64,000 nt of DNA from Isurus oxyrinchus (lineage: Eukaryota). The notes beneath the pieces were generated by a model. It was not told the DNA's origin. It was given only the letters and a program-made list of their open reading frames with translations, and did not search any database. Each line of letters opens with the position of its first letter. The stretch's first letter is position 1. The stretch spans positions 124,001 to 188,000 of the forward strand of contig JANJGN010000926.1 of NCBI GenBank assembly GCA_026770705.1. Direction: 5' to 3'. A program made the translations under genes and the position numbers. This document shows, piece after piece, positions 7,076 to 53,512 of the stretch.

Positions 7076-7399
7076 CTGGAACAAAGACAGAGAACAATCA
7101 GCAGATAATCCCCACACCCCACAGCTCTCCGAAATCTCTGTGCTCCTCCAATTCCGACCCCTTGCACATTCTCCCATTCCCATCTCTCCACCATTGGCGG
7201 CCGTGCCTTAAGCTGCCTGGACCCTAACCTCTGGAATTCCCTCCATCATTTCTCACCTCCTTCGGACAAAATCTGACCCCGAGTCACATTAGGAGATATT
7301 AGGAGAGGTGAGCAAAAGCTCGCTGAAAGCAGGAGGTTTTAACGGTGTGTCTTAATGGTTTTAAGGAGCATCTTAATGGTTGAGAAAGAGTTGGAGATT

Positions 7400-8620: not shown

Positions 8621-8946
8621 GCTCAGAATCAGCTGGATGGACAGAAAGACCAATGAGTGACTTAGATCAAGAGGAGACGTTCAGCAATTAAAAGGGTTGT
8701 TCAGGACAGTTAGAGAGAGAAAGGTCGTCAAGTACGGAGATTGGAAACGAAGACCTGACAGCCTTGTCCTCACAACCATTGAAGGAGAAACTGAGAGCAA
8801 AAACAGAAAGGGAGAGGAAAAATTGGGTGTGTGGATAACGTGGACTGAGCGAGGATTGAAGAAAACTGGATTAAAAACAACACGATCCCAATGGCTCCAT
8901 GGAGACCACGGAGACAACAAACAAACAAATGTATCTCCACACTCAC

Positions 8947-9228
8947 ATTCCACAGTGATGGTTATGAACCCCTCCACTGCTCCATGTTCATTCTCTGCCA
9001 CACACTGATAGTCTCCAGTGTCCCTGGATGTAACGTGAGGAATCACCAACCACAGCTCATTGTTGGAACTTGTTCTGTTCATTGGGACATTAAGATGTCG
9101 CCACGTCAGGTTAGAAGCTGGGAAGCTCTCGACAGAGCAGATTATCACTGCAGAATTCCCCTCAATTATGTTGATCGATGAAGCGTTAATCATATCAAGA
9201 GAAGTAATTGATGGGTTCCGTGGTGCAT
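8947..9228 (-). CDS. Gene A Ig C2 exon, copy b (HAPRNPSITS...IEGNSAVIICSVESFPASNLTW...DTGDYQCVAENEHG)
   Basis: 282 nt, phase 1/1, canonical C...W...DxGxYxC. Confidence 0.9.
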
Positions 9229-10188
9229 CTAAATACAAATAAAGGTTTCATTGTGAGCAAACACAGTGCACAGCAAGACTCCAGGTATCATCTCTCTCCA
9301 TCTGGTGTCTATGTGCATGTCAAGGCTTCTTTCTCCATTATAATTTTCTCTGTCACCATTTGTAACATTCACTGCCAGTGTGTTCCTTTTTGCATATTCA
9401 TGGGAAGTGGATGTATCTATCTAGACCAGCATTTATTACCCATCCCTAATTGCCCTTGAGGAGGTGGTGGTGAGTTTTTCACCTCCAGAGGATTCCCAGC
9501 CTCTGACCGGCTCCTGTAGCCACAGTATTTATGGCCGGTCCAGTTAGTTGTTTGGTTAACATCCCCCAGGATGTGGATTGTGGGGGATTCAGTGATGTGA
9601 AAGTGATTGAATATCAAGGGAAGTTGGTTAGATTCTCTCTTGTTGGAGATGATCACTGCCTGGTGCTTGTGTGGTGTGAACGTTACTTGTCATTTCTCAG
9701 CCCAAGCTGAGTGTTGCTCAGCTCTTGCTGCATGTGGATATGTAAACTGTCACGCTGTAATTACAGCCTTCCACCAGAGGAGACACTGTCGGGCTAGAAG
9801 AAAAGAAAGTGTCTTTCACATGATCAGGATGTTCAGGGAGATTTCACCATGGAGGAATTGCTTTGGAATAGTGGGGTATTGGGTGATAAATCTACAATTC
9901 ACTGTTCAGGAGGTTGCTCCATCCAATTCAGTGTCTTGATGATCTGGAGTTTACCTTCCTTCAACACAGAATCAGAGCTGCTACCGAGACTCGAGTGCAG
10001 CACTGAGACANNNNNNNNNNNNNNNNNNNNNNNNNNNNNNNNNNNNNNNNNNNNNNNNNNNNNNNNNNNNNNNNNNNNNNNNNNNNNNNNNNNNNNNNNN
10101 NNNNNNNNNNNNNNNNNNNNNNNNNNNNNNNNNNNNNNNNNNNNNNNNNNNNNNNNNNNNNNNNNNNNNNNNNNNNNNNNTAACTCAC

Positions 10189-10470
10189 GTTCCACAGTGA
10201 TGGTTATGAACCCCTCCACTGCTCCATGTTCATTCTCTGCCACACACAGATAGTCTCCAGTGTCCCTGAATGTAACGTGAGGAATCCCCAACCACAGCTC
10301 ATTGTTGGAACTTGTTCTGTTCATTGGGACATTAAGATGTTGCCACGTCAGGTTAGAAGCTGGGAAGCTCTCGACAGAGCAGATTATCACTGCAGAATTC
10401 CCCTCAATTATATTGATCGATGAAGCGTTAATCATATCAAGAGAAGTAAATGAGAGATTCTGTGGAGCAT
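10189..10470 (-). CDS. Gene A Ig C2 exon, copy a (DAPQNLSFTS...DTGDYLCVAENEHG)
   Basis: 282 nt, phase 1/1, splice sites intact; near-identical to 8947-9228. Confidence 0.9.
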
Positions 10471-11399
10471 CTAAGAACAAATCAAGTGTTTAATGTGAGC
10501 AAGCACTGTGCACAGCAAGACTCCATGCATCATGTCTCTGTATCTGATGCCTGTGTGCATTTCTAGGCACCTTCCCTCAAGATAAGTTCCTATGTCACAT
10601 TTACAATGGGCACTGCCTATGTAAACTGTCACACTGCAGGAGCATTCTCCCACCAGAGACCCTGCCCATCCAGATTTAAAGAAACTCCCTTTCACATCCT
10701 CAGGATGTCCCCAAGGGCTTGACAGGCAATGAATTATATTTAATCGATGGAGCACTGAGGGGTAAATCTACAATTCTCTGTTAAGGATTTTGCTCATCCA
10801 ATTCAGGGTCTTGTTGATCTGGAGTTTACCTTCCTTCAGCACAGAATCGGAGCTGACACCGAGACTCCAGTGCAGCACTGANNNNNNNNNNNNNNNNNNN
10901 NNNNNNNNNNNNNNNNNNNNNNNNNNNNNNNNNNNNNNNNNNNNNNNNNNNNNNNNNNNNNNNNNNNNNNNNNNNNNNNNNNNNNNNNNNNNNNNNNNNN
11001 NNNNNNNNNNNNNNNNNNNNNNNNNNNNNNNNNNNNNNNNNNNNNNNNNNNNNNNNNNNNNNNNNNNNNNNNNNNNNNNNNNNNNNNNNNNNNNNNNNNN
11101 NNNNNNNNNNNNNNNNNNNNNNNNNNNNNNNNNNNNNNNNNNNNNNNNNNNNNNNTGTGTGTTGTCTGTGTGCGCGTGTGCATGTGNNNNNNNNNNNNNN
11201 NNNNNNNNNNNNNNNNNNNNNNNNNNNNNNNNNNNNNNNNNNNNNNNNNNNNNNNNNNNNNNNNNNNNNNNNNNNNNNNNNNNNNNNNNNNNNNNNNNNN
11301 NNNNNNNNNNNNNNNNNNNNNNNNNNNNNNNNNNNNNNNNNNNNNNNNNNNNNNNNNNNNNNCATGTGTGTGTGTGTCTGTTGGTGCGTGTGTGGTCTG

Positions 11400-12450
11400 T
11401 GTAACCTGTAAACCTAACCCTTCCACACTGATGGTCACGAACACCCCCCACTGCCAACAAATTTATCTCAGTAAGGAACATGGCACTGCCAACCTCGTCA
11501 ATACCATCTTCTAAACAGGGGATTGGGTAGGAGTCTGGTTTTATTGCTGCATTAACCTTTCTGTAATCTATGCAGAATCTGGTTGGAAATGAAATACCTG
11601 CTCCTTTTTACCTCCCTCCCTACGATGGTATCATTTTAACATATTGATGTGTCACAGCCGATTCTTTATTCTACAATCTGGGGTGTCTATCAAATAATTT
11701 ACTTGACCAACCCTCCTAATTACCTTGTGGGGACCACTGAACTGCGCTTTCAGAGGCTCCCCCTGCCAAGGCAATGATACTAACACGTCATCCCCCTGGT
11801 TGTGATGTTCGGGTCACAGCTTGCCTGTCTGCCCCATTCCTTCATCTCTGTTTGAGAAACTATAAGATGTTCTTGTGCCACTTTGGAGGCTCCCATGAGC
11901 CGTTCCTGAAACATGGACACATCATCTGAAATAGAGGATTCATCCCTCTGTCCGGAATATCTTTCTTTGATGTATTTCAGACAGCCTCTTATCTCGTGTC
12001 CATAAGTTATTCCAAAAAGACTAAAACCTGCCGATTCAGTTGGTGAATCTCGTGTGGGAAATGCAAGAAAATCCAGTCCTTTGTCCCAGTCATGGGGTGT
12101 TCATGACAATAGCTTCAATCATTGTTTTGAGGGTTTGTTGGTCCCTCTCTAAAGATCCCCGTGTCTATGGATGATATGCTGTGGACTTTAACTGTTTTAT
12201 ACCCAAATTACTCATTATGTTCGGAAAATTTTAAGACATAGAGATGGAACCTTGATCTGACTGGATCTCCAGCGGTAATCCATAATGGATAAAAAATTGG
12301 GTTAACTTCCCTATTACTACTTTAGCTGTAATTGTTCCTAAAGGGATGGCCTCTGGAAATCGAGTTGTCATATCCATCATAGTGAGGCCATACTGGAGTC
12401 CGGCTTTCATTTTCGATAATGGTCTAATACAGTCCACTAATGCTCGTATC
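11400..12450 (-). mobile_element. Degenerate Gypsy-type LTR retrotransposon integrase fragment (copy ~54340-55390)
   Basis: LTMMDMTTRFPEAIPL...YGLPLEIQSDQGS is an rve integrase core motif. Confidence 0.8.
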
Positions 12451-12589
12451 CATTGGTAACGGACAATTAGCTCACTGGAGGAGGGGAATCCACAAATATC
12501 CCCATCCTCAATGATGGGGGAGCCCAGCACATCAGGGCAAAAGATAAGGCTGAAGCATTTGCTACAACAATTATCCATTTCTGTCTGGC

Positions 12590-14650
12590 GTAAAAATAAA
12601 TCAGGAAATGGTGCTCAACCAGGGCTTACAAAAGAAATTAGGGATAGTATTAGATCCAGAGAGGAGACATAAAATTGCCAGGGGAAGCAGCAATGCTGAG
12701 GATTGGGAGCAGTTTAGAATTCAGCAAAAGTGGACAAAAAGATTGATCAAGAAGGGGAAAATGGAACATGGGAGTAAACTTGCAGGGAATGTAAAAACCG
12801 ACTGTAAAAGCTTCTATAAATATGTGAAGAGAGAAAGATTAGCAGTGACCGATGTAGGTTCCTTGCAGTCAGAAATGGGGGAAATTCTAATGAGAAACAA
12901 AGAAATGGCAGAAGAACTGAACATATATTTTGGTTCTGTCTTCACAAAAGAGGACACAAATAATTTCCCAGGAATGTTAGGGAACCAAGTGTCTAGTGAG
13001 AGGGAGGAATTGAAGATAATCAGGATTAGTTTTAAAAAATGAATCTGGAGAGATTAATGGGTTAAAGGTTGAACAGTCCCCAGGGCCTGAAAATCTACAT
13101 CCCAGAGACTAACGGAAGTGACCCTGGAAATATTGGAAGCACTGGTGGTCATCCTCCAAAATTCTATAGGCTCTGGAGCAGTTCCTATAGATTGGAGGGT
13201 GGCAATTGTAACCCCACTATTTAAAATAGAAGGGAGAGAAAAATCAGAGAATTACAGATCAGTTAGTCTAACATGGGGAAAACGCTAGAGCCTATTATAT
13301 AAGGTGTGCTAATGGAACGCTTGGAAAGCATTAATGGGATTAGACAAAGTCAGCATGGGTTAATGAAAGGAAAATCATGCTTAACTAATCTACTGGAGAT
13401 TTTGAGGATGTAACTTGTGGAATAGATAAGGGATAACCAGTGGATGTGGTGTTTTTAGATTTCAAGAAGGCTTTTGATAAGGTCCCACATAAGAGGCTAG
13501 TGAGCAACATTAAAGCCCATGGGATTGGGGGTAATTTACTGGCATGGATTGAGAATTGGTCGACAGACAGGAAACAGAGGGTCAGAATAAATTAGTCTTT
13601 ATCTGAGTGGCAGGCGGTGACTAGTGGTGTACCACAGGGATCCGTGCTTGGGACCTAACTATTCATGATATATTTAAATGACTTGGGTGAGCGAGCCAAG
13701 TGCAATATTTCCAGGTTTTCTGATGACACAACGCTGGGTAAGGGTGTGAGCTGTGAGGAGGATGCAAAGAGGCTTCAAGGCGATTTAGACAAGTTGTGTG
13801 TGTGGGCAAACACATGGCAGATGATGTGGATGAATGTGACATTGTAGGCTTTGGTGTGAAAAACAGAAAGGCAGAGTATTATTTAAATGGTGATATAATG
13901 GGAAATGTGGATGTACAAAGGGATCTGGGTGTCCTTGTGCACTAGCCAATGAAAGTAAACAGGCAGGTGCAGCAAGTAATTCGGAAGGCAAATGGTATGT
14001 TGGCCTTCATTGCAAGAGGATTTGTGTTCAGGAGTAGGGATGTCTCACTGCAGTTATACAAGGTCTTGGTGAGACTGCAAATGGGGTACTACGTGCCGTT
14101 TTGGTCTCCCTCCCTAAAAAAGGATAGACCTGCCGTCGAGAGAGTGCAGAGAAGGTTCTCTAGGCTGATACCAGGGGCGGCAGGACTGTCGTATGAGGAG
14201 AATTGGTACGACTGGGTCTGTATTCACTAGAGTTTAGAAGAATGAGAGGAGACCTGAATAAACGTAAGAAATTCTAACAGAGATAGACAGACTGGATGGA
14301 GGGAGGATGCATCCCTTGGTTGGGGAGTCTAAAACCAAGGGCGACAATCTCAGGATACAGGGCAGGCCATTTTGGACTGAGATAGGGAAACATTTCTTCA
14401 CTCAGAGGGTGGTCAATCTGTGGAATTCTCCATCACAGAGGCTGTGGAGGCCGGGTCACTGAGTGTATTCAAGAAAGAAACTGATAAATATTTTGATAGT
14501 AGGGGCATCAAAGGGTACGGAGAGAAAGCGGGAATAAGGCTTTGAGATAGAGGGTCAGCCTTGATCATATTGAATGGCGGAGAAGGCTTGAAGGGCTGAA
14601 TGTCCTAATCCTGCTCCTAGTTTCTATGTACCTAGGTATCTATAGAACTA
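12590..14650 (+). mobile_element. Degenerate 5'-truncated CR1 LINE (copy ~55530-57590)
   Basis: ORF2 remnants KSFYKYVK, DFKKAFDKVPH, GVPQGSVLGP, VERVQRRFSRLIPG; CR1-like 3' end. Confidence 0.9.
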
Positions 14651-15001
14651 TCTCTCTCCGTGTTCTATTCTCATGTGACCTTGAGTAACTGATGATAAAT
14701 ACTATCTATTTACATTGTTAATATTAAACTTTTATACTACATCTCCCCCAAAATCTTTGACATCAATGAAGACAATATTTATATTATCCTATATTGTCTT
14801 TTAAGTTCAACCTTGGCCCCCTCTGCCTTATCAGGTAGGCATAAACAATCCCAAGGCTCAATACAGGAAGAGCTCTCCCTGGTCAATATCACTAATAAAA
14901 AAGGACCTGTTTTGTCTTCAACCCAGTGATGTTTGTGGGATCTTGCTCTGCACATTGTATCCTATTACAGCTAATATAGAATCAAGGGTGTCAGTACTTA
15001 C

Positions 15002-15298
15002 CTTGTACAGTTAGTACAAGGGTCCGCTCCGATGAAACAGATGGATATCTCACTCTGCAGCAGAGTGTGTGTCCGTGGTGTTTGAGTGATGGGATCAGGG
15101 TCAGAACAGAAGTATAGGTCAGAGTGACACCATGCTGAGTTACAGTGTTTGAGACTGATCCAGGTACGTCAGTGGGAGTGTCCCAGGTTAAGACAGGTGC
15201 TGCTGTTCCATTGCACGTTGTGTTGAAGGTGCAGCTTACATCCACACGCTTTCCTGCAATAATTTCAGCAGGGAATATCATGGGTTTATCTGTGAAAT
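15002..15298 (-). CDS. Gene A Siglec domain-2-type C2 exon (DFTDKPMIFPAEIIAGKRVDVSCTFNTTCNG...TSVLTLIPSLKHHGHTLCCRV)
   Basis: 297 nt, phase 1/1; extra Cys after the B-strand Cys and SxLTLxPxxxHHGxxLxC, typical of Siglec D2. Confidence 0.92.
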
Positions 15299-15549
15299 CT
15301 AACAGACAGAGAATGGATCCTTTTAGAGAAATATAATGTGAAGCATCAGTTCAAATAGAAATCACAGTCCCACAAGAGAAAGCACTTTTACAAGGATGAT
15401 ATCAGAACTGAGAGATTACAATGATCAGGAAAGATTTTCTTGCTCTTTGGCAGTAGTGTTTCTGTCTCTCAGCTTAATACACGTTCACTCCGAGACATGT
15501 GAATTGAGAACACTGGATGAGAGAAGAGGCTCAGACCAGAGATTGGAGT

Positions 15550-16157: not shown

Positions 16158-16526
16158 CAGAAACGTGAAGCTGGGTTACAGGATAGTAGTTGTAACTATT
16201 ACTGCTGTCAAATTCTATTCTGAAAAAATAAGGTCCTGCATCTTCCCGTCTGATGTTGTTTATAATCAGGGAACAGTTGCCATCTTTCAGGTCTCCAGAC
16301 AGCCGGGTCCGATTGTGGAACCGTGGTAACTCGTGACTGTGATCTTTGGAGTGAAAGGCAATGGGAGCCCAGGGAATCTGTTTCTCATTATTAAACCAGA
16401 CTCCACCTCGCGGTTGGTTTTCCAAATGTGCTGGATAACTGTAATGACATGGAATCTGTACACACGAACCTTCCTGCGCTGTCACCTCTCGTGGAGTGTC
16501 ACCTTTCCACTCTTGTGACAGTCCAA
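16158..16526 (-). CDS. Gene A Siglec V-set sialic-acid-binding domain exon
   Basis: 369 nt, phase 1/1; GSCVQIPC, RTRLSGDLKDGNCSLII and DAGPYFFRIE with the F-strand essential Arg and the B-E intrasheet Cys pair. Confidence 0.95.
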
Positions 16527-21037: not shown

Positions 21038-21177
21038 TCAATCAGGCTGTCGACTTCCTTTCACTGTTTGTCTCTCCCAGACACAGACTCCAGTGATAGT
21101 GATAACCACAGCCACAAGGAATATCACAGCTCGTATTCCCAGGATCAGGATCACGTGCAGAATCTCTCCTCCACTGT
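21038..21177 (-). CDS. Gene C TM/short-tail terminal exon with intramembrane Arg (xSGGEILHVILILGIRAVIFLVAVVITITGVCVWERQTVKGSRQPD*)
   Basis: Pyrimidine-rich acceptor tttctttctgtgtgttctctag| in phase 1; long hydrophobic segment with Arg (CGA at 21131-21133); 12-aa Tyr-free tail; not in the ORF track. Confidence 0.8.
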
Positions 21178-22770: not shown

Positions 22771-23067
22771 CTTGCACAGTTAGTACGAGGGTCCGCTCCG
22801 ATGAAACAGATGGATATCTCACTCTGCAGCTGAGAGTGTGTCCGTGGTGTTTGAGTGATGGGATCAGGGTCAGAACAGAAGTATAGGTCAGAGTGACACC
22901 ATGCTGAGTTACAGTGTTTGAGACTGATCCAGGTACGTCAGTGGGAGTGTCCCAGGTTAAGACAGGTGCTGCTGTTCCATTGCACGTTGTGTTGATGGTG
23001 CAGCTTACATCCACACACTTTCCTGCTATAATTTCAGCAGGGAATATCGTGGGTTTATCTGTGAAAT
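22771..23067 (-). CDS. Gene C Siglec domain-2-type C2 exon
   Basis: 297 nt, phase 1/1, open, near-identical to 15002-15298 and 57941-58237. Confidence 0.9.
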
Positions 23068-23880: not shown

Positions 23881-24249
23881 CAGAAATGTGAAGCTGGGTT
23901 ACAGGGTAATAGTTATGGCTCGGACCATTGTCAAATTCTATTCTGAAAAAATAAGGTCCTGCATCTTCCCGTCTGATGTTGTTTATAATCAGGGAACAGT
24001 CGCCATCTTTCAGGTCTCCAGACAGCCGGGTCCGTTGGCGGAACCGTGGTAACTCGTGACTGTGATCCTTGGAGTGAAAGGCAATGGCAGCCCAGGGAAT
24101 CTGATTCTCATTATTAAACCAGACTCCACCTCGCGGTTGGTTTTCCAGACACGATGGATAACTGTAATGACAAGGAATCTGTACACATGAACCTTCCTGC
24201 GCTGTCACCTCTCGTGGAGTGTCACATTTCCACTCTTGTGAGGGTTCAA
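23881..24249 (-). CDS. Gene C V-set exon V2 (essential Arg retained; extra Cys in WKCD and YPSC)
   Basis: 369 nt, phase 1/1, open, YFFRIE motif. Confidence 0.92.
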
Positions 24250-25105: not shown

Positions 25106-26726
25106 CCTTCTTAAAATATTAAAGCTGCAGAATAAACATGCAAGTGACTGACCCGCTCGACCCACCTTCCATCTGGGGGTCCCATGGGGAGGACCCTTCC
25201 TGAGCCAGATCCACCAGCCAACATGGTCTGGATCCGAGCACAGGAGACACGGGGGGGAGTGACTAACAGGCTCCTTGTGACAGGCCCCGTCTGTCCAATG
25301 GCTGGCTTTCAGCTGCCAAGGCCAGAGTGGTCCTTGCTAAAACCGGCTCAGGACAGGCCAGGACCCCTGTGCAGACCCCCTCCAGCGCTGCAGCCTCTGT
25401 ACAAACCCCTCATGCGCTTGTGGAGAGACACAAACAAGGCTGCACATTACCGAGGAGAATCCCCTCTACGGACTAAGGTGCTGACTCATCACCTTAAACT
25501 CAGCAAATGAGGAGGCTCTCGCTCGGTATCGGGACTTGGCATTCGCTCAATAAAAATAATCAAATTACATTTTGGTCAGAAATCTAAGGAGGTTGTACAT
25601 TCCCTCAAAAATAAGACTCGATCTGGGGTCTAGGGTCAAAGGGCAACAACTTATATTTACACAACAACTTGAACATGACAAATCACCCCAAGGTGCTACA
25701 CAGGAGCGTCATAAAACAAAGTATGTCACGCAGACACATGTGGAGATATTAGCGACAGCTGGCCAGAAGAGGACGGTGTTATGGAGAATCTTCAAAGGGG
25801 GATGAAATGGATAGTGAGAGAGAGACAGAGCGATAGAGAGAGTGAGAGAGAGGGACGAAGAGGGGTTGAGGGAGGGTATTACAGAGCTCGGGTCCCAGGC
25901 AGCTGAAGGCACGGCCGCCGATGTTGGAGTGATGGGATCGGGGGATGGTCAAGAGGCTGGAATTGGATGAGAGCAGAGACCTCAGAGGGTTGGAGGGGCT
26001 GGAGGAGGTTACAGAGATAAGGAGGGTTGTAGTGATTGGAGGAGGTTACAGAGATAGGGATGGTTGTAGAGGCTGGAAAATTTAAGAGAGATTGGGAGAG
26101 TGTAGGGTATGGAGGAGTTCGCAGAGCTAGAGAGGTTTGTAGTGGCTGGAGGAGGTTGCAGAGATTGGTAGGTTTGTTGTGCAGGATGATTTTACAGATA
26201 TAGGGAAGCAGCAGAGGCTTGAAGAGGTTACAGAGATAGGGAGGGTTGTAGGTACTGGAGGAGGACGAGGAGATTACGGAGATAGTGAGGAAACAAAGAT
26301 GAAAATTTGGACATTGAGACTTTGCTTGACCAGGAGCCAGTCTCGGTCATCGAGCAGAGCGGGTGATAAGGGAACGGGACTTGGTGTGAGTAAGGACGTG
26401 GTCAGCAGTTTTGGATGGCCTCAAGTTTATGGAGTGTAGAGCGTGTGTTGGAACAGTCGAGTCTGGAGGTAATGAAGGCATGGATGAGGGTTTCAGCAGC
26501 AGATGAGCTGAGACAGGGTGATGTCGTGCGATGTTACGGAGGTGGAAATAGACGGTGTTAGTGAGGGCGCAGATATGAGGCCGGAAGCTCATCTCAGGAT
26601 CAAATGGGACAACAAAGCTGTGAACAGTTGAAAACAAAGAAAACTGCGGATGCTGGAAATCTAAAACAAAAACAGAATTACCTGGAAAAACTCAGTAGGT
26701 CTGGCAGCATCGGCGGAGGAGAAAAG

Positions 26727-26765
26727 AGTTGACGTTTCGAGTCCTCATGACCCTTCGACAGAACT
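26727..26765 (-). ncRNA. Minimal type I hammerhead-ribozyme-like motif in the Penelope terminus (mirror copy 30379-30417, + strand)
   Basis: AGTT-CTGTCGA-A-GGGTC-ATGAG-GACTC-GAAAC-GTC-AACT: stem I, variant core, stem II, GAAA, GUC triplet. Confidence 0.65.
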
Positions 26766-27166
26766 TGATTTCGAGTCCAGGAAAGAGTTGAAATATAAGC
26801 TGGTTTAAGGTGTGTGGGGGGGGGGGGGGGGGGAAGGAGAGAGAGAGAGAGACAGAGGTGCTTGTGTAGACAAACAAGCAGTGATAGAAGCAGATCATCA
26901 AAAGATGTCAGTAACAATGGTACCAAAGAACACATAGGTGTTAAAGTTAAAGTTGGTGATATTATCTAAACGAATGTGCTAATTAAGAATGGATGGTAGG
27001 GCACTCAAGGTACAGCTCTAGTGGGGGTGGGGGGAGCATAAAGGATTTTAAAATATTTAAAAATAATGGAAATAGGTGGGAAAAGAAAAATCTATAAAAT
27101 TTATAGGGAAAAAAAAGGGGGAAAAAAAGGGGGAAACAGAAAGGGGGTGGGGATGGGGGAGGGAGC

Positions 27167-29737
27167 TCACGACCTAAAGTTATTGAATTCAATATTCAGA
27201 CCGGAAGGCTGTAAGGTGCCTAGTCGGAAGATGAGGTGTTGTTCCTCCAGTTTGCGTTGGGCTTCACTGGAACAATGCAGTAAGCCAAGGACAGACATGT
27301 GGGCAAGAGAGCAGGGTGGAGTGTTAAAATGGCAAGCCACAGGGAGGTTTGGGTCATTCTTGCGGACAGACCGCAGGTGTTCTGCAAAGCGGTCGCCCAG
27401 TTTACGTTTGGTCTCTCCAATGTAGAGGAGACCACATTGGGAGCAACGAATGCAGTAGACTAAGTTGGGTGAAATGCAAGTGAAATGCTGCTTCACTTGA
27501 AAGGAATGTTTGGGCCCTTGGACGGTGAGGAGAGAGGAAGTGAAGGGGCAGGTGTTACATCTTTTGCGTGGGCATGGGGTGGTGCCATAGGAGGGGGTTG
27601 AGGAGTAGGGGGTGATGGAGGAGTGGACCAGGGTGTCCCGGAGGGAGCGATCTCTACGGAATGCCGATAAGGGGGGTGAAGGGAAGATGTGTTTGGTGGT
27701 GGCATCATGCTGGAGTTGGCGGAAATGGCGGAGGATGATCCTTTGAATGCGGAGGCTGGTGGGGTGATAAGTGAGGACAAGGGGGACCCTATCATGTTTC
27801 TGGGAGGGAGGAGAAGGCGTGAGGGCGGATGCGCGGGAGATGGGCCGGACACGGTTGAGGGCCCTGTCAACGACCGTGGGTGGAAAACCTCGGTTAAGGA
27901 AGAAGGAGGACATGTCAGAGGAACCGTTTTTGAAGGTAGCATCATCGGAACAGATGCGACGAAGGCGAAGGAACTGGGAGAATGGGATGGAGTCCTTACA
28001 GGAAGCGGGGTGTGAGGAGCTGTAGTCGAGGTAGCTGTGGGAGTCGGTGGGTTTGTAGTGGATATTGGTGGACAGTCTATCACCAGAGATTGAGACAGAG
28101 AGGTCAAGGAAGGGAAGGGAAGTGTCAGAGATGGACCACGTGAAAATGATGGAGGGGTGGAGATTGGAAGCAAAATTAATAAATTTTTCCAAGTCCCGAC
28201 GAGAGCATGAAGCAGCACCGAAGTAATCATCGATGTACCGGAGAAAAAGTTGTGGAAGGGGGCCGGGGTAGGACTGCAACAAGGAATGTTCCACATATCC
28301 CATAAAGAGACAGGCATAGCTGGGGCCCATGCGGGTACCCATAGCCACACCTTTTATTTGGAGAAAGTGAGAGGAGTTGAAGGAGAAATTGTTCAACGTG
28401 AGAACAAGTTCAGCCAGACGGAGGAGAGTAGTGGTGGATGGGGATTGTTCGGGCCTCTGTTCGAGGAAGAAGCTAAGGGCCCTCAGACCATCCTGGTGGG
28501 GGATGGAGGTGTAGAGGGATTGGACGTCCATGGTGAAGAGGAAGCGGTTGGAGCCAGGGAACTGGAAATTGTTGATGTGACGTAAGGTGTCAGAGGAATC
28601 ACGGATGTAGGTGGGAAGGGACTGGACAAGGGGAGAGAGAAGGGAGTCAAGATAACGAGAAATGAGTTCTGTGGGGCAGGAGCAAGCTGAGACGATCGGT
28701 CTACCAGGGCAGTTCTGTTTGTGGATTTTGGGTAGGAGATAGAAGCGGGCCGTCCGAGGTTGGGCGACTATCAGGTTGGAAGCTGTGGGAGGGAGATCCC
28801 CAGAGGAGATGAGGTCAGTGACAGTCCTGGAAACAATGGCTTGATGTTCAGTGGTGGGGTCATGGTCGAGGGAGAGGTAGGAGGAAGTGTCTGCGAGTTG
28901 ACGCTCAGCCTCCGCGAGGTAGAGGTCAGTGCGCCAGACAACAACAGCACCACCCTTGTCAGCGGGTTTGATGACAATGTCAGGGTTGGACCTGAGAGAA
29001 TGGAGTGCAGTAAGTTCAGAGAGAGACAGGTTAGAATGGGTGAGAGGAGTAGAGAAATTGAGACGACTAATGTCGCGCCGACAGTTCTCAATGAAAAGAT
29101 CAAGAGAAGGTAAGAATCCAGAGGGAGGGGTCCAGGTGGAGGGAGAATATTGGAGATGGGTAAAAGGATCTGTTGAACTGGGAGAGGACTCCTGCCCAAA
29201 GAAGTGAGCCCGGAGACGAAGACGGCGAAAGAAGAGTTCAGCATCATGCCGAGCCCGAAATTCATTGAGGTGAGGGCGTAAGGGTATGAAACTAAGTCCT
29301 TTGCTGAGCACTGAACGTTCAGCATCGGAGAGGGGAAGGTCAGGGGGTATAGTGAATACACGGCTGGGGCTGGGATTGGAAGATGGGGTGGGGACGGAGG
29401 GACAGGCTGGGGTGGAGGGTCCTAGATGGGTGTTGGTGTCGATGAGTTGTTGGAGCTTGCGTTCCTTAGCAGTTGAGAGAAAGAGAAAAAGTTTCTTGTT
29501 GAGGCGTCGGATGAGCCGAAGGATAAAATGAAACTGAGGGCACGCGCAGCTTTGAAAAAGGGTACGGCGGTGCTGCTGGAGGGAAAGGTCGAGTGTGTTC
29601 ATATGGCGGCGCATGGCACTGAGTGTGGATTTCAGAATGTGACGGGAACAGCAGTCTGAGAAACGTTTTATGTCCCGGAGATACCGGTAATCCTGGGTGG
29701 GTTCGAAAGATGAGGGGTGGAATTTCAGTTGAAATCC
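27167..29737 (-). CDS. Penelope-like reverse transcriptase + GIY-YIG endonuclease (5'-truncated; frame stays open to ATG 30079 through the inverted repeat)
   Basis: KPADKGGAVV, LPKIHK, GRPIVS, QIKGVAMGT, RYIDD, NLVYCIRC..C..LYIGET...RFAEH, GLN; no stops. Confidence 0.93.
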   Translation of the reverse strand, partial: GFQLKFHPSSFEPTQDYRYLRDIKRFSDCCSRHILKSTLSAMRRHMNTLDLSLQQHRRTLFQSCACPQFHFILRLIRRLNKKLFLFLSTAKERKLQQLIDTNTHLGPSTPACPSVPTPSSNPSPSRVFTIPPDLPLSDAERSVLSKGLSFIPLRPHLNEFRARHDAELFFRRLRLRAHFFGQESSPSSTDPFTHLQYSPSTWTPPSGFLPSLDLFIENCRRDISRLNFSTPLTHSNLSLSELTALHSLRSNPDIVIKPADKGGAVVVWRTDLYLAEAERQLADTSSYLSLDHDPTTEHQAIVSRTVTDLISSGDLPPTASNLIVAQPRTARFYLLPKIHKQNCPGRPIVSACSCPTELISRYLDSLLSPLVQSLPTYIRDSSDTLRHINNFQFPGSNRFLFTMDVQSLYTSIPHQDGLRALSFFLEQRPEQSPSTTTLLRLAELVLTLNNFSFNSSHFLQIKGVAMGTRMGPSYACLFMGYVEHSLLQSYPGPLPQLFLRYIDDYFGAASCSRRDLEKFINFASNLHPSIIFTWSISDTSLPFLDLSVSISGDRLSTNIHYKPTDSHSYLDYSSSHPASCKDSIPFSQFLRLRRICSDDATFKNGSSDMSSFFLNRGFPPTVVDRALNRVRPISRASALTPSPPSQKHDRVPLVLTYHPTSLRIQRIILRHFRQLQHDATTKHIFPSPPLSAFRRDRSLRDTLVHSSITPYSSTPSYGTTPCPRKRCNTCPFTSSLLTVQGPKHSFQVKQHFTCISPNLVYCIRCSQCGLLYIGETKRKLGDRFAEHLRSVRKNDPNLPVACHFNTPPCSLAHMSVLGLLHCSSEAQRKLEEQHLIFRLGTLQPSGLNIEFNNFRS

Positions 29738-31387
29738 ACGTAAACTGGGCGACCGCTTTGCAGAACACCTGCGGTCTGTCCGCAAGAATGACCCAAACCT
29801 CCCTGTGGCTTGCCATTTTAACACTCCACCCTGCTCTCTTGCCCACATGTCTGTCCTTGGCTTACTGCATTGTTCCAGTGAAGCCCAACGCAAACTGGAG
29901 GAACAACACCTCATCTTCCGACTAGGCACCTTACAGCCTTCCGGTCTGAATATTGAATTCAATAACTTTAGGTCGTGAGCTCCCTCCCCCATCCCCACCC
30001 CCTTTCTGTTTCCCCCTTTTTTTCCCCCTTTTTTTTCCCTATAAATTTTATAGATTTTTCTTTTCCCACCTATTTCCATTATTTTTAAATATTTTAAAAT
30101 CCTTTATGCTCCCCCCACCCCCACTAGAGCTGTACCTTGAGTGCCCTACCATCCATTCTTAATTAGCACATTCGTTTAGATAATATCACCAACTTTAACT
30201 TTAACACCTATGTGTTCTTTGGTACCATTGTTACTGACATCTTTTGATGATCTGCTTCTATCACTGCTTGTTTGTCTACACAAGCACCTCTGTCTCTCTC
30301 TCTCTCTCCTTCCCCCCCCCCCCCCCCCACACACCTTAAACCAGCTTATATTTCAACTCTTTCCTGGACTCGAAATCAAGTTCTGTCGAAGGGTCATGAG
30401 GACTCGAAACGTCAACTCTTTTCTCCTCCGCCGATGCTGCCAGACCTACTGAGTTTTTCCAGGTAATTCTGTTTTTGTTTTAAAGCTGTGAACAGATTGG
30501 CTTCAATCTCAGAGAGCTGCCAGGGAGAGGAATGGAGTTGGTAGCGAGGGAACAGAGTTTGGAGCGGGGAATGAAGACAATGGCTTCAGTCTTTCCAATA
30601 TTTAATTGGAGGGAATTTCTGCCCATCCAGTACTGGATGTCGGATAAGCAGCCTGATAATTTAGCAGCAGTGGAGGAGTCGAGAGAGGTGGTGGTGAGGT
30701 AGAGCTGGGCATCCTCAGTGGACAGGTGAAAACTAACACTGTTCAGATGATGCTGCAAAGCCATTGCAAGTGATTCTCTGGCTACGATGAGATGGATAAG
30801 AATGGAGCCAGGGGAGAGCAGTCCCACCCAGCTGGACGACAGTGGAGAGGGGTTGGAGGAAGATGGTGTGGTCGAGCGTGTCAAAGGCTGCAGACAGATC
30901 GAGAAGGAGGAGGAGGGAAAGTTGACCTTTGTCACAGTCACACAGGATGCCATTTGTGACCTTGATAAGAGCTGTTTCAGCACAGTGGCTGGGGTGGGAA
31001 CCTGATTGGAGGGATTCAAACATGGAGTTCCGGGAAAGATGGGAACGGATTCGGGAGATGGAAACACGTTCAAGGACTTTGCAGGTGAAAGAGAGGCTGG
31101 AGATGGGACGGGGGTTTACACGGACAGTGTGAGGGGTGGAAGGTGTAGTGGGGAGGAGACACTTCACTCAGGGGGGAGGTGTCATCACCCCTCAGCTCGG
31201 TTTACGTTACAGCTATGATGTGGATTCAATCACACACAATAAGCTCATGGATCTGGGAGCAGAAATAAACAAATCATTAAAAATAGTGACGCTGGTTAAC
31301 ACGGTCAAAAAACAAGCAAATCAAACACTATTATTTCCCATTGAGTGTTGGATGTGAATTGTTGAGTAATTATAACGCAGCACTTAC

Positions 31388-31774
31388 CAGAAACCTGAAG
31401 CTGGGTTACAGGATAGTAGCTGTATCTATTTCTGCTGTCAAATTCTATTCTGAAATAATAATATCCTGCATCTTCCCGTCTGATGTTGTTTATAATCAGG
31501 GAACAGTCGCCATCTTTCAGGTCTCCAGACAGCCGGGTCCGATGGCGGAACCGTGTTAACTCGCGATTGTGATCCTTGGAGTGAAAAGCTATTGTCCCTC
31601 TAGACCTTGTATTCCATGTATTCCATGTGTACCATTTCACGTACCAGATTCCGACACGTGCTCTCCCTACTACACGTGCTGGATATCTGTAGTTACATGG
31701 AATCTGTACACACGAACCTTCCTGCGCTGTCACCTCTCGTGGAGTTTCACCTTTCCACTCTTGTGACAGTCCAA
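31388..31774 (-). CDS. Gene C V-set exon V1 (divergent loops, essential Arg retained in YYYFRIE)
   Basis: 387 nt, phase 1/1, open, splice sites intact. Confidence 0.92.
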
Positions 31775-37073: not shown

Positions 37074-37113
37074 CTTGGAGAAGTGACAGGAGGAAGTAAG
37101 ATTTCCCGATCAT
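37074..37113 (-). CDS. Gene C leader exon, coding part (MIGKSYFLLSLLQ); exon begins at 37155
   Basis: Same peptide as the gene A leader; flanks 36930-37400 match 17240-17720. Confidence 0.85.
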
Positions 37114-47456: not shown

Positions 47457-47705
47457 TCAGTTTTTCTGGAACCTGATCTGTGCGTATTCCGTGTCCTCGC
47501 TCCTGTGCACAGTCCTGTCACCGCTGGGCAGCTTTGAAAAGTTGATGTTGGCGTAGAGAAGCTCGTCGGTATTGTCGGGGTTCCCATGTCCAACATCACC
47601 TCCCACTGGACCTTCAGAGAGATCCCGGGGAGCTGGGGTCTCCCCCTCACTAGTTGTGTCTCTGGTTGTTTCCCGGGGCTCAGTAATCAGCACGTTCTGT
47701 TCATC
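47457..47705 (-). CDS. Gene B terminal exon with ITIM (LLYANI) and ITSM-like motif (TEYAQI)
   Basis: 249 nt, phase 0; DELLYANINF...TEYAQIRFQKN* matches the two-tyrosine tail layout of inhibitory Siglecs. Confidence 0.92.
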   Translation of the reverse strand, partial: DEQNVLITEPRETTRDTTSEGETPAPRDLSEGPVGGDVGHGNPDNTDELLYANINFSKLPSGDRTVHRSEDTEYAQIRFQKN

Positions 47706-48428
47706 CTACAGAGAAATGGAAACAGAAGACATCCTCACATCATTTACTGGCACTGATAGGGTTAAATTATTGTGCAGCCTCGTTAGTGTCAGTCGTGTCT
47801 CAGTGGGTTTAAGCCTTTTTTTCCCTCTCTTTCTCTGTCTCTCTTTCTCTCTCGCTTTCTCTCTCTGTGTATAATTTAATCTCTATCACACTCCAACAGT
47901 GCAGCACTCCCTCAGTACTGACCCTCTGACAGTGCAGCACTCCCTCAATACTGACCCTCTGACAGTGCAGCACTCCCTCAGTACTGACCCTCTGACAGTC
48001 CAGCACTCCCTCAGTAATGACCCTCTGACAGTACAGCACTCCCTCAATACTGACCCTCTGTCAGTGCAGCACTCCCTCAGTACTGACCCTCTGACAGTGC
48101 AGCACTCCCTCAGTACTGACCCTCTGACAGTGCAGCACTCCCTCAGTACTGACCCTCTGACAGTGCAGCACTCCCTCAGTACTGACCCTCTGACAGGGCA
48201 GCACTCCCTCACTACTGACATCAGGTGCCTTGTCATTATTGTGTTCAGGTTTCTGGTCAAAGAGCGAGTGATGGAGGGTGACAGAGGCTGGGAGCGAGAG
48301 ACAGTGCTGTCCACTGAGCCATTGCTTCACAGGGCGATATCTGTGTGTAACCCGGCTGATAATCTGGTATACGTGTTGTCTACACACTGAGATAGAAGCT
48401 TTGGAGTGAGTGTAAACAGCTCCTGTAC

Positions 48429-48510
48429 CTGGTGCTTCACAGAGAGTGACCTGGGGGTCAATGCATTGTCACTGGTCCCTGAAACTCTCTCCTGCGTTGC
48501 TGTCTTTCTC
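48429..48510 (-). CDS. Gene B cytoplasmic exon 1 (KRKTATQERVSGTSDNALTPRSLSVKHQ)
   Basis: 82 nt, phase 2/0, AG/GT intact. Confidence 0.85.
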
Positions 48511-49386
48511 CTGCAATAACACAATATCACACTGTGGTTATCATATAGCAGAGAGTCAGTGCAGCACAGACACAGAGCCCACTGTAACCTTACACCAACA
48601 ACTGGACTGTCTCTAGTTCCAATAAGGGATATCAGCATGACATCACTATAATGGAAGTGTGTCATGTGATCCAATCTTAGTTTGACTTTTGCTTTGAGCA
48701 GAACACACACTCACAGCTCTGATGCCTTCAATCTTTCTCCGTATGTATAACTGTTCTCGTGCCGAGTCCTGATAAACAAACCGAAACATTCTCACCCAAA
48801 CCCTGTGAGCGATTGGTGCTTTGTTTCTTGTACAGTAAATAAGCCTAAGGTATAATATCATTATAATGACACGCCATATCTTTGACCCCCCCTCCACCCC
48901 TGCTCTTCCCCCCATAGCCCTTCAAATGTTCCCCCTTCAAGTATTTATCCAATTCCCCTTTTGAAAGATCCTATTAAATCTGCTTCCAGCGCCCTTTCAG
49001 GCAGCACCTTCCAGATCACAGCAACTGATTATTATTCATCTGGATAACGGGCAATGAAAAACTCTCTCTGGATCGTAAGGGACAAAGAGACCAGTTAGGG
49101 AGAGGCATCTGGCGCTTAACACAAGGGAAACAATCACCGACTTCAGGAAAGAACATTGAAGCAAATATTTATCCAGGAGTAATCGTGCAGAGTGAGGAAT
49201 CTCTGGGTCTCGTGATTGTTTACCTGGATACAGGACAATGAAAGGTTCTCTCCGGATCACAGTGGACACAGGGATCACTTACGGAGAGGGAACTGGTGCT
49301 GATCCCAAGGGAAACAATCACCGACTTAAGGAAAGAACATTGAAGCAAATGTTTATATTAAAATCAAGTTAAATCTTCAGACTTAC

Positions 49387-49483
49387 TTTCTCACACAGAT
49401 GAAGATGAAGATTCCAGCCAGGAAAACACTCAACATGATCCCAGCCGTGAACAATCCTACTGTCCATTTACTGGAGTCTCTAC
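49387..49483 (-). CDS. Gene B transmembrane exon (uncharged, same as gene A)
   Basis: 97 nt, phase 1/2, matches 4572-4668. Confidence 0.9.
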
Positions 49484-50872
49484 CTGTAAAAACAGCCATT
49501 AATTACTGCACTACAGGTTTACAATGATGCTCCGATGTATCTCGAGAAGCGATACACTCACTCAATGTTTAAATACTCATTCTCGGGCAATGCTGACATT
49601 TATTGTCCATCCCTAGTTTCCCCTTGAGAAGGTGGTGGGGGGTCTTCCTCCTGAACCACTGGTTTGTCCCAAACTGGGAGACCAGCTCAGAGGGCAGGTA
49701 AGAGTTAACCATGTTGGTGTTACAGACTGGAGTCACATATACACCCAGACCTGTTAAAATGGACAGGTTTCCCTCCCTTAAGATAATTAGTGACCCATAT
49801 TATATATGTAATTTCTATTTTTATGTATCAACTACCCTCCCTAAAATAATCAATTATCACCTCAATTTCACGCTGTTGTTTGTGGGATCTTGCTGTGCAC
49901 AAATCAGCTGTTGCGTTTCTTACATGATGACAGTGAGCTCACTTTGAAACTGCTTCACTGGTTATCGAGCGTTTTGGGAATTCCTAAGTATTTTATCAAC
50001 GCAAGTCTTATATTTCGATTTAATCCATGTAACATTTATATATAATATTTATCAATGTGATCCCTATAGCATAAATTTATAATATTTATCAATATAATCT
50101 ATGTAACATTTATATATAATTTTTATCCATTTAATTTCTGTAATATTTATATATAATGTTTCTCGATTTAATCCATGTAACATTTATATATTATATTTAT
50201 CCATGTAATATATGTAACATTTATATCTAATATTTATCCATTTAATCTGTGTAACATTTATATTTAATTTTTCTCAATGTAATCTATAACATTTATATAT
50301 ATTTTTCAATATAATCCATGTAACATTTATATATAATATTTATCAATGTAATATATGTAACATTTATATATAATATTTATCAATGTAATATATGTAACAT
50401 TTATATATATTTATCCATTTAATCTATGTAACATTTATATATAATATTTCTCGATGTTATCTATGTAACATTTATATATAATGTTTCTCGATGTAATCTA
50501 TGTAATGTTTATATATAATATTTAGTCGTTTGGGAGGAGAACCTGAGTATTGCTGAGAAAGGACATTTTGTCAAAGCTTTCTGTCTTGCACCCAATGAAG
50601 CAGCTTATCTGGGGGAGAGGGTTCCAGATTTCCACTCCCCTTTGTGTGAAGAAGTGCTTCCTGACATCACCCCCTGAACGGCCTGGCTCCAAGTTGACCA
50701 AGTGTTGCCATTGTCACATGAGGTCAGGTGATTCAAAGCTTGGTCAAAGGGGTAAGTTGTACACAGCATCTTAGAGGAGGTAGAGAGAGAGGTGGAGAGG
50801 TTGAGGGAGGGAATTCTCGAGTTTAGGGATCAATCCAGCTGAGTGGAGATCGATCCTGAGCGAGTCTCTCAC

Positions 50873-51166
50873 CTTTGACCCACAGATAAACCTTGAACAT
50901 GGCTTCCCCGTGTGGGTTTTGAACCGAGCAGGATGCAATCACTCCCCCCTCATCCTGGGGTCTCATCAGGGTGAGGGAACCAGTCACCAGATGCCCATCT
51001 CTGACCTGCCACGACACAAAACCTCCGTGTGTTTGGTTACCACTGATGTTGGCACTGGGCAGGTGCCAGGTGAGGTCTCCGGGTGGGTTGGAGTTGGCCA
51101 CACAGACGCAGGTGACCCCCTCTGATCTCCGAGTGCACTCCGACTGCTGGGAAATCTCCGGCTTAT
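50873..51166 (-). CDS. Gene B membrane-proximal MAG-D5-like C2 exon
   Basis: 294 nt, phase 1/1, open. Confidence 0.88.
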
Positions 51167-53230
51167 CTGAGGAGGGAAGGACAACAATGAGACAACGTCA
51201 TAGCAAAGTTAGAGCGTAAGATAGAATCTTAACACTGAAACACTCATTCCTGCCTTTGTTACCTCCGCACTCAACTATCCCAACACTCTCCTGCCCGACC
51301 TCCCATCTTCCACTCTCTGTAAACATCAGCTCAACCCAAACTCTGCTGTCCCCATGTCCTAACTCACACCAAATCCTGTTCACACATCACTCCCTGTTGG
51401 TCACTGAGCTACACTGGCTCCCGGTCCGACAATGCCACAATTTTAAAATTAACATCGTTTCAAATCCCTCCTTACCCCCTCCCTATCTCTGTTACCTCCT
51501 CCAGACCCTTCAACCCTCCCTATCTCTGTAACCTCCTCCAGCCCCTTCAACACTCCCTATCTCTGTAACCTCCTCCAGCCCGTTCAACCCTCCCTATCTC
51601 AGTAACCTCCTCCAGCCCCTACAACCTTCCTTATCTCTGTAAACTCCTCCAGCCCCTACAACCTTCCTTATCTCTGTAAACTCCTCCAGCCTCTACAACC
51701 CTCTGAGATCTCTGTGCACCTCCAATTCCAGCCTCTTGACATTCCCCCGATTCCTATCGCTCCACCATTGGCGGCCGTGCCTTCAGCTGCCTGGATCCTA
51801 ACCTCTGGAATTCCCTCCCACATTTATCACCTCCTTCGGACAAAATCTGACCACCATCAAAAGCATCTTCCCTTCACCCCCACCCTGTTGGCATTCCACA
51901 GGGATCATTCCCTCCAGGACACCCTGGTCCACTCCTCCATCACCCCTAGCACCTCAACCCTCTCCGATGACATCTTCCCATGCATTTGCAGAAGGTGCAA
52001 CACCTGCCCCTTTACTTCCTCCCCCCTCACTGTCCAATGACCCAAACACTCCTTCCAGGTGAAGCAGCGCTTCATGCAGACTTCCTTCAATATAATCTAC
52101 TGCATTCACTGCTCCCAATGTGGTCTCCTCTACATGGGACAGACCACACAGACTGGGTGATCGCTCTGATGAACACCTTCGGTCTGTCCACAAGCATGAC
52201 CCAGACCTCCCTGTCGCTTGCCATTTTAACACCCTACCCTGCTCTCATGCCCACATGTCCGTCCTTGGCCTGCTGCATTGTTCCAGTGAAGCCCAACACA
52301 AACTGGAGGAACAGCACCTCATCTTCCGACCTGGCACTTTACAGCCTTCCGGTCTGAATATTGAGTTCAACACTTTCAGATCATGAACTCTCTCCTCGAT
52401 CTTCACTGCTTTTTGAACCCTTTTTTATGTATTCATTTTAATTGTTTTATTTGTTGACTGTTTTCCACTTATTTTTATTATTATTATTTGAAATTCATTT
52501 CCATTTTTATTGATTGTTTTATCCGCAGATTTTAGTCTATTTTCGATCTTTATTCCCTCCACCGTCCCCTCCCCCCTCCACACCCCCACGAGGGCCATCT
52601 GTCTCTGTCCAGAGTGCTTACCCTGGTCCGCCCATTATCACACTCTGCTTAATGTCACCATTAGCACCTCCTTTATCCAATACCACCACTGTTAACAACC
52701 CTTTGACCTTTTGTTTATGACATCTTCCACAATCTCTCCATTGCCTCCACATATCGCTGGTTTTCTATCCAGCTCCACCTGTCCCATCGCCCCCCCTTAG
52801 ACAGGATATATTTCACCACATGTCTACTTCCCTTTAGCTCTGAAGAGGAGTCTTACGGACTCCAAACGCTAACCCTGTCTTTCTCTCCACAGATGCTGCC
52901 AGATGCTCAGAATCAGCTGGATGGACAGAAAGACCAATGAGTGGCTTAGATCAAGAGGAGACGTTCAGCAATTAAAAGGGTTGTTCAGGACAGTTAGAGA
53001 GAGAAAGGTCGTCAAGTACGGAGATTGGAAACGAAGACCTGACAGCCTTGTCCTGACAACCATTGAAGGAGAAACTGAGAGCAAAAACAGAAAGGGAGAG
53101 GAAAAATTGGATGTGTGGATAACGTGGACTGAGCGAGGATTGAAGAAAACTGGATTAAAAACAACACGATCCCAATGGCTCCACGGAGACCACGGAGACA
53201 ACAACCAAACAAATGTATCTCCACACTCAC

Positions 53231-53512
53231 ATTCCACAGTGATGGTTATGAACCCCTTCACTGCTCCATGTTCATTCTCTGCCACACACTGATAGTCTCC
53301 AGTGTCCCTGGATGTAACGTGAGGAATCACCAACCACAGCTCATTGTTGGAACTTGTTCTGTTCATTGGGACATTAAGATGTCGCCACGTCAGGTTAGAA
53401 GCTGGGAAGCTCTCGACAGAGCAGATTATCACTGCAGAATTCCCCTCAATTATATTGATTGATGAAGCGTTAATCATATCAAGAGAAGTAATTGAGAGAT
53501 TCTGTGGTCCAT
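53231..53512 (-). CDS. Gene B third Ig C2 exon (single copy)
   Basis: 282 nt, phase 1/1, DGPQNLSITS...DTGDYQCVAENEHG. Confidence 0.9.

What the first reader, a model, noticed from the sequence alone, without database searches (positions are those of the whole stretch)
31388..31774. Hypervariable loops on a fixed framework across five V exons, with independent 9-bp microduplications in the C-C' loop
Frameworks (TPREVTAQEGSCVQIPC, LSGDLKDGxCSLIINNIRREDAG, YYPVTQL) are nearly invariant. Variation concentrates in the B-C loop, the C-C' loop (FNNEKQIPWAP / YVKWYTWNTWNTRSRGT / KMRRYIRNKWSKWS) and the F-G region (DSSNSYN / DSRNRYS / DNGPSHN / GNRPSHN). The long C-C' loops contain tandem 9-mers: tattccatg x2 at 31610-31627 and agaccattt x2 at 62817-62834. 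The C-C' loop is a known specificity determinant in Siglec-7/9, so this suggests diversifying selection.
Basis: partly seen in the sequence, partly recalled or inferred. Interest (0 to 1): 0.7.

Follow-up and report, generated by a model that had tools for sequence, protein, structure and literature searches.

The report
Shark double-V paired Siglec-like receptors
The five exons belong to three shark genes for Siglec-like immune receptors; two of them carry two sugar-binding-type V domains in a row and are likely an activating/inhibitory pair whose outer domain varies, likely by swapping of old loop cassettes and 9-base slippage, with no measurable excess of amino-acid changes over silent ones.

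Summary
Five V exons share a framework and differ in the B-C, C-C' and F-G regions, and both tandem 9-mers lie where stated. (1) The exons form three genes of a lamniform-like shark: a single-V gene and two V-V genes, one with an Arg-bearing membrane segment and short tail, one with ITIM motifs. RNA contigs of this or a close species show a leader-V and a V-V splice. (2) Loop variation sits mainly in the outer V; inner V domains are conserved and usually carry an extra B-C cysteine. (3) dN/dS in the loops is about 1, because silent sites are as diverged as replacement sites. The exons are mosaics of incompatible tracts, so gene conversion among old loop types fits better than simple point-mutation selection, which stays unproven. 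(4) The 62.8-kb exon has an in-frame stop and has lost the essential Arg, and its repeat motif is shared with white and basking shark proteins. Loop-determined specificity, paired receptors and a two-V Siglec are known in mammals; I found no paper on this elasmobranch family in ten searches. New variant of a known kind.

The parts
31388..31774 (-). V31: outer (distal) V-set exon of gene 2; open frame, essential-Arg position kept (codon 31449-31451)
31650..31679 (-). B-C loop of V31
31593..31643 (-). 17-residue C-C' loop of V31, a degenerate 9-bp array; perfect tandem 9-mer at 31610-31627
31416..31439 (-). F-G segment of V31, 'SNSY' type, shared with V16
37074..37113 (-). Leader exon of gene 2; joint 37074-31774 with GT-AG ends in two RNA-type runs
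23881..24249 (-). V24: inner (proximal) V exon of gene 2, no leader of its own, extra B-C Cys at 24149-24151
22771..23067 (-). C2-set exon of gene 2 (a 5'-truncated further C2 remnant lies at 22290-22445)
21038..21177 (-). Membrane exon of gene 2: Arg inside the hydrophobic stretch, short tail without Tyr (activating type)
62612..62989 (-). V62: outer V exon of gene 3; in-frame TGA 62865-62867, essential Arg replaced by Thr (62673-62675), tandem 9-mer 62817-62834
62640..62663 (-). F-G segment of V62, 'PSHN' type shared with V24/V59; likely gene-conversion tract
59051..59419 (-). V59: inner V exon of gene 3 with the extra B-C Cys
47460..58240 (-). Rest of gene 3: three C2 exons, uncharged membrane exon (49386-49484), tail exons with LLYANI and TEYAQI (inhibitory type); leader would lie beyond the window
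16158..16526 (-). V16: single V exon of gene 1 (leader 17389-17428), no extra B-C Cys
2068..15301 (-). Rest of gene 1: five C2 exons (one, near 6.96 kb, frameshifted), uncharged membrane exon, tail with TEYAQI
26662..30482 (-). Penelope-like retroelement in the V31-V24 intron, absent from the gene 3 duplicate

Best explanation
The window holds three shark genes for Siglec-like receptors; genes 2 and 3 have a V-V-C2 ectodomain and are likely an activating (Arg in the membrane segment, short tail) and inhibitory (ITIM) pair, in which the outer V is predicted to read ligands while the conserved inner V likely serves as a disulfide-linked spacer. Shown: exon layout, an open 410-residue frame for gene 2, mosaic exons, the 9-bp array, the stop in V62, and V-V splicing in a family member. 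Inferred: the extra B-C Cys of the inner V takes the place of the C2-domain Cys that pairs with the V-domain Cys in other Siglecs; outer-domain diversity is generated by gene conversion that homogenises the framework and reassorts old B-C/C-C' and F-G cassettes, plus in-frame slippage that adds 3-residue units (11, 14, 17 residues). Inferred with less support: ligand or pathogen pressure keeps the divergent cassettes. V62 is dead; gene 3 would survive only by skipping it.
For: Only two leader exons for five V exons, none between V31 and V24 or V62 and V59; V24/V59 share only about 55 bp of upstream intron with the others. RNA-type contigs: joint 31774-37074 with GT-AG ends in X15 and X18 but not in DNA run X2; one X15 contig joins a V-exon end to a start matching V24. 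Spliced gene 2 is open for 410 residues and 89% identical over 408 to Carcharodon P0126, also V-V-C2 with the Arg membrane segment. Tandem V domains in 31 of 109 hits and 11 of 20 species. Cys at +7 from the B-strand Cys in 40 of 51 domains that follow a V, against 3 of 78 leader-preceded first domains (23 others set aside); the C2 partner Cys is at +6. Loop identity 0.43 among 12 outer vs 0.81 among 15 inner lamniform domains. 27 informative sites fall in blocks with conflicting partitions, 20 of 26 neighbours alike, permutation p 1e-5. 6 of 7 named C-C' types occur with both F-G types. White-shark ITIM and Arg-type proteins share first domains at 97.5% and 94.3%. Loops of 13 or more residues in 9 of 49 lamniform and 0 of 108 other domains.
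Against: No binding, signalling or disulfide was tested; the V-V-C2 model failed (pLDDT 31). The V-V joint rests on one contig laid at 82% likeness and may come from a paralogue; the runs hold under half of the stretch's words and RNA status is the tool's guess. 11 of 51 inner domains lack the extra Cys, including three of the seven-V basking-shark model, so some multi-V RefSeq models may be fused; related domains are not independent counts. V31 and V62 are only 66% identical, so this particular pair is poorly matched in the outer domain, and V62 is broken. Inner domains keep the essential Arg, so they may bind ligand too. Multi-base codon differences inflate the dS estimate. Gene 2 has two further unpaired-looking Cys.
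Confidence: 0.68

Rival explanations
1. One reading: the loops diversified by point-mutation positive selection (dN/dS > 1) for new glycan or pathogen specificities.
For: Variation concentrates at the C-C', F-G and B-C loops. V31/V62 loop pN of 0.42 against 2-7% intron divergence. In single-base-difference codons of B-C plus C-C', 11 replacement vs 1 silent. Length changes of the 11/14/17 series stay in frame. Precedent in Xenopus paired CEACAMs (PMC5112662, passages).
Against: No pair with dN significantly above dS; ML omega about 1 or below. Silent divergence is raised too. Conflicting tracts show recombination, which distorts such tests.
Confidence: 0.3
2. Neutral tolerance with birth-and-death: surface loops accept change, slippage is a by-product of a 9-bp array, and outer V exons are drifting or decaying duplicates.
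For: Omega near 1; V62 has a stop and no essential Arg; gene 1 has a frameshifted C2 exon; gene 2 has a truncated C2 remnant.
Against: The same loop types recur in white and basking shark proteins; the essential-Arg column is R in 146 of 157 domains; inner-domain loops in the same genes stay conserved, so loops are not free everywhere.
Confidence: 0.2
3. The tandem V exons are alternative cassettes and mature receptors carry a single V.
For: RefSeq isoform P0130 joins the leader to the inner V, skipping the outer one of P0016; all exons are phase 1-1, so skipping keeps the frame.
Against: A contig joins a V end to a V24-type start; the extra Cys tracks inner position.
Confidence: 0.12
4. The repeated V exons and loop differences are assembly artefacts.
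For: The window has six N gaps and many repeats.
Against: Copies differ by 2-13% in introns; the same architecture and loop types occur in independent shark assemblies.
Confidence: 0.03

Closest known systems
Paired CD33-related Siglecs (Siglec-5/14, Siglec-11/16)
   Same: ITIM receptor and charged-membrane short-tail receptor with similar ectodomains in one cluster, kept alike by gene conversion (PMC13358205, PMC6288428, passages).
   Different: Two V domains; conversion here appears as short intra-exon tracts among many paralogues; orthology to the mammalian CD33-related group is not established.
Siglec-12 (two V-set domains)
   Same: V-V-C2 layout; loss of the essential Arg and null alleles occur (PMC6288428, passages). 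RefSeq labels many shark hits 'Siglec-12'.
   Different: Elasmobranch models have 2-7 tandem V domains in 11 of 20 species, a position-linked extra Cys, and activating forms; likely a separate origin (inference).
Sialoadhesin, MAG, CD33, Siglec-5/7 V-set domain
   Same: Best structural matches (sialoadhesin TM 0.82, E 1.5e-12); A-strand Trp, F-strand Arg, G-strand aromatic and Cys pattern align.
   Different: C-C' loop 8 residues longer than in sialoadhesin and rich in Trp/Tyr; the PSHN cassette puts His at the G-strand aromatic position.
Xenopus paired CEACAMs
   Same: Non-mammalian paired Ig receptors with conversion of the V-type exon and variation on the CC'FG face (PMC5112662, passages).
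   Different: There silent differences are absent in converted tracts and replacements accumulate; here silent and replacement divergence rise together in the loops.
Skate MDIRs
   Same: Multigene activating/inhibitory Ig receptors of a cartilaginous fish (PMC3031540, passages).
   Different: Described as CD300/TREM/pIgR-like; the window's domains match Siglecs first. MDIR sequences were not compared directly.

Membership tests
Siglec | N-terminal V-set domain of Siglec type followed by C2-set domains, membrane segment, tail | tested here: met
   Pfam V-set and Ig_CD22 above cut-off; fold matches; exon map
Siglec | Essential Arg on strand F | tested here: met
   Aligns with sialoadhesin R97 in V31; present in V16, V24, V31, V59; Thr in V62
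Siglec | B-E intra-sheet Cys pair and a further Cys for the link to domain 2 | tested here: met
   Cys columns scored are C in 139 of 139 domains; B-strand Cys nearly invariant; bonds themselves not observed
Siglec | Aromatic residues on strands A and G | tested here: met
   A-strand Trp 151 of 157; G-strand Tyr in V31 and V16, His in the PSHN type; their role is recalled
Siglec | Arg-dependent sialic acid binding | not testable with these tools
   needs a binding assay
CD33-related Siglecs | Orthology or synteny with the mammalian CD33-related cluster | tested here: inconclusive
   V16 scores best with Siglec-5/CD33/MAG, V31 with sialoadhesin; no genome held; no tree with mammalian sequences
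Paired receptors | Linked genes with similar ectodomains and opposite signalling parts | tested here: met
   Gene 2 Arg membrane segment, gene 3 LLYANI/TEYAQI; inner V 93% and C2 exon 98% alike, outer V only 66%
Paired receptors | Adaptor association and phosphatase recruitment | not testable with these tools
   needs cell assays
Positively selected ligand-binding loops | dN/dS significantly above 1 in the loops | tested here: not met
   five sequences only, ranges include values above 1

The most novel reading that the evidence does not exclude
Elasmobranchs evolved their own family of multi-V Siglecs in which stacked V domains are locked by a newly acquired inter-V disulfide, and lamniform sharks build a germline repertoire of outer domains combinatorially: a slippage-prone 9-bp array sets C-C' loop length while gene conversion shuffles B-C/C-C' and F-G cassettes across activating and inhibitory partners, each combination with its own glycan or pathogen specificity.
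Probability: 0.3. Interest if true: 0.72.

Novelty: new variant of a known kind. Interest (0 to 1): 0.5.

Why it matters
If right, paired activating/inhibitory Siglecs and two-V Siglecs are not mammalian specialities: sharks and rays have an expanded family with the same logic, either ancient or convergent. The natural series of 11-, 14- and 17-residue C-C' loops and two F-G cassettes on an almost fixed frame is a ready loop-swap experiment on how Siglec specificity is encoded. It is also a caution: concentrated loop variation here comes with equally high silent divergence, so it cannot be read as positive selection without dealing with recombination.

Tried and rejected
No whole genome is held, so no genome-wide paralogue set, synteny or DNA for site-wise dN/dS. 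Single-sequence AlphaFold of a V-V-C2 relative failed (pLDDT 31); the second job went to V31, so the inter-V disulfide was not modelled. A profile search for relatives outside elasmobranchs listed only its best 120 of 194 hits; the named ones were all sharks and rays, one unnamed, so it says nothing on bony fish. No RNA holder was on record in the run search. The read-laying tables showed no variant rows inside the V exon (list cut to the best supported), so no allele-level counts. Earlier scan findings: nothing. Cao and Crocker 2011 is not held; Bornhofft 2018 was seen only as cited in PMC9630641 and PMC13324653 and may cover cartilaginous-fish Siglecs. Rejected: five separate single-V genes (only two leaders); both repeats being recent and private; an antibody or TCR V cluster (Siglec Cys pattern and fold, GT donor directly after the G strand). 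The protein tree is the quick, unfinished search on 112 of 157 domains and is used only as a hint. No supplements were read.

Full report
Observation. A six-frame search and alignment recover five V exons on the minus strand, V16, V24, V31, V59 and V62, with the quoted frameworks and loops and canonical AG/GT ends. Both tandem 9-mers are exact at the stated places; codon shuffles of the loops give p 0.004 and 0.003, and 3 of 1247 50-bp windows of the window hold such a repeat. An AlphaFold model of V31 (pLDDT 87, 51 sequences) puts the variable stretches between strands B and C, C and C', and F and G, with confidence under 50 only at residues 52-56 of the C-C' loop.

What the genes are. All 109 protein hits are shark or ray proteins, most annotated as Siglec-, CD33-, CD22- or MAG-like; the best are Carcharodon and Cetorhinus, so the window is likely a lamniform shark (inference). 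V31 matches Pfam V-set and Ig_CD22, aligns to sialoadhesin with W2, R97 and W106 matched by W6, R108 and Y117 (their roles are recalled), and its model's best Foldseek hits are sialoadhesin, MAG, CD33 and Siglec-7. Only two leader exons exist, at 17428 and 37113. Gene 1 is L-V16-five C2-membrane-tail, with a frameshift in one C2 exon. Gene 2 is L-V31-V24-C2-membrane; its membrane segment holds an Arg, its tail is short and lacks Tyr, and the spliced frame is open for 410 residues, 89% identical to Carcharodon P0126. Gene 3 is V62-V59-three C2-membrane-tail with LLYANI and TEYAQI. The V-V-C2 blocks of genes 2 and 3 are duplicates at 93-94% identity, apart from a 3.8-kb insertion. In laid contigs, a joint 31774-37074 with GT-AG ends occurs in runs X15 and X18 and not in the DNA run X2, and one X15 contig joins a V-exon end to eight letters that match the start of V24. 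These were laid at 82% likeness, so they show that the family splices leader-V and V-V, not that this exact gene does.

Where the variation is. Tandem V domains occur in 31 of the 109 hits (the search favoured long proteins) and in 11 of 20 species. Among lamniform two-V proteins, loop identity is 0.43 for 12 outer and 0.81 for 15 inner domains, with frameworks at 0.86 and 0.92. Inner domains carry a Cys seven residues after the B-strand Cys in 40 of 51 cases, against 3 of 78 leader-preceded first domains; 23 other domains were set aside. It is found in all 11 species with tandem V domains, two rays included. The first C2 domain has a Cys at +6, and a V-to-C2 disulfide is described for Siglec-6 (PMC10122656, passages). 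I infer that the +7 Cys accepts the free Cys of the V domain above it. This is untested: the two-domain model failed, 11 inner domains lack the Cys, and the domains are related, so the counts are not independent.

The 9-bp repeats. Both long loops are degenerate period-9 arrays (27 of 42 and 20 of 33 matches at lag 9; codon-shuffle p under 0.001). Loops of 13 or more residues occur in 9 of 49 lamniform and 0 of 108 other domains, and the outer class groups together in a quick tree (SH-aLRT 94, hint only). V31 equals the 14-residue loop type of Carcharodon P0127 plus one 3-residue unit; V62's KWSKWS is found in Carcharodon P0129 and as KWSKWP in Cetorhinus P0003. So two slippage events in different registers are likely, one recent and one old or recurrent. 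A 13-residue class (3 domains) does not fit the 11/14/17 ladder.

Selection or conversion. Pairwise counts give no significant excess of replacements in loops for any of 10 pairs. For V31/V62 loops pS is 0.415 and pN 0.421, framework 0.105 and 0.071, introns 0.022 and 0.069. Codon ML gives omega 0.65 for the framework, about 1.0 for B-C plus C-C' (range 0.5-2) and 0.5 for F-G (0.2-2.5); none differs significantly from 1. For selection: single-base codon differences in B-C plus C-C' are 11 replacement to 1 silent, and V62 may have drifted since its stop. The 27 informative sites form blocks, V24+V59 at the 5' end, V31+V62 in B-C and V16+V31 over nine consecutive sites in F-G; 20 of 26 neighbours agree, permutation p 1e-5. 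The F-G block conflicts with the duplication history and includes silent differences, which indicates tract transfer. In lamniform proteins 6 of 7 named C-C' types occur with both F-G types, and the PSHN type also occurs in five non-lamniform domains. White-shark ITIM and Arg-type models share first domains at 97.5% and 94.3% identity. The best reading is old loop cassettes reassorted on a homogenised frame; selection preserving them is plausible but not shown.

Comparison with what is known. C-C' loop control of specificity is reported for Siglec-7/9 (PMC7165337, one passage) and Siglec-8 (PMC9875244, passages). Paired Siglecs kept alike by conversion and the two-V Siglec-12 are reviewed in PMC13358205 and PMC6288428 (passages); Xenopus CEACAMs give a non-mammalian precedent (PMC5112662, passages); skate MDIRs are a different paired family (PMC3031540, passages). 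Ten library searches listed no paper on shark Siglec clusters; the whale shark genome paper names Siglecs once in passing. The library lacks most subscription journals, Bornhofft 2018 was not seen, and RefSeq already carries automatic 'Siglec-12-like' multi-V models. Membership: Siglec by sequence and fold, binding untested; CD33-related subgroup inconclusive; positively selected loops not met on these data.

Verdict. The feature is real. What stands out is an apparently undescribed elasmobranch variant of known Siglec themes: tandem V domains with a position-linked Cys, activating and inhibitory forms, cassette shuffling and a slippage-prone loop. Interest 0.5; new variant of a known kind.

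Noticed in passing
window 26662-30482: Penelope-like element: 978-residue stop-free frame with RT (E 7.5e-8) and weak GIY-YIG (E 1e-3), flanked by 746-bp inverted repeats 99.9% alike; absent from the gene 3 duplicate, so likely a recent insertion.
   Followed up: partly
window about 6960-6975: Frameshift in the fourth C2 exon of gene 1; the matching exon is missing from gene 3. Real lesion or sequencing error not resolved.
   Followed up: no
window 22290-22445: Only the 3' half of a C2 exon remains in gene 2, between its C2 and membrane exons.
   Followed up: partly
window 822-947 and 3744-3869: A second copy of the first tail exon lies below gene 1's last exon (block 9-1540 repeats 2934-4463 at 93%); a white-shark model (P0024) has a doubled tail.
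   Followed up: no
V24 and the C2 exon of gene 2: Two extra Cys (positions 151 and 283 of the spliced model) not present in V59 or gene 3's C2 exon; partner unknown.
   Followed up: no
Cetorhinus LOC144671591 (P0003, P0112-P0125): Seven V domains, roughly alternating outer and inner types, identical in all 15 listed isoforms of 20; the models have odd N-termini and may fuse neighbouring genes.
   Followed up: partly
run X16 loose end at 31592: An RNA-type contig carries a further C-C' type (FNNEEWRTSS-like) not present in this window.
   Followed up: no
window 18237-19690, 37724-38152, 40226-40649, 47896-48219 (33-bp); 60381-61334, 25985-26264 (37-bp): Dispersed 33- and 37-bp satellite arrays throughout the cluster; could seed unequal exchange.
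   Followed up: no
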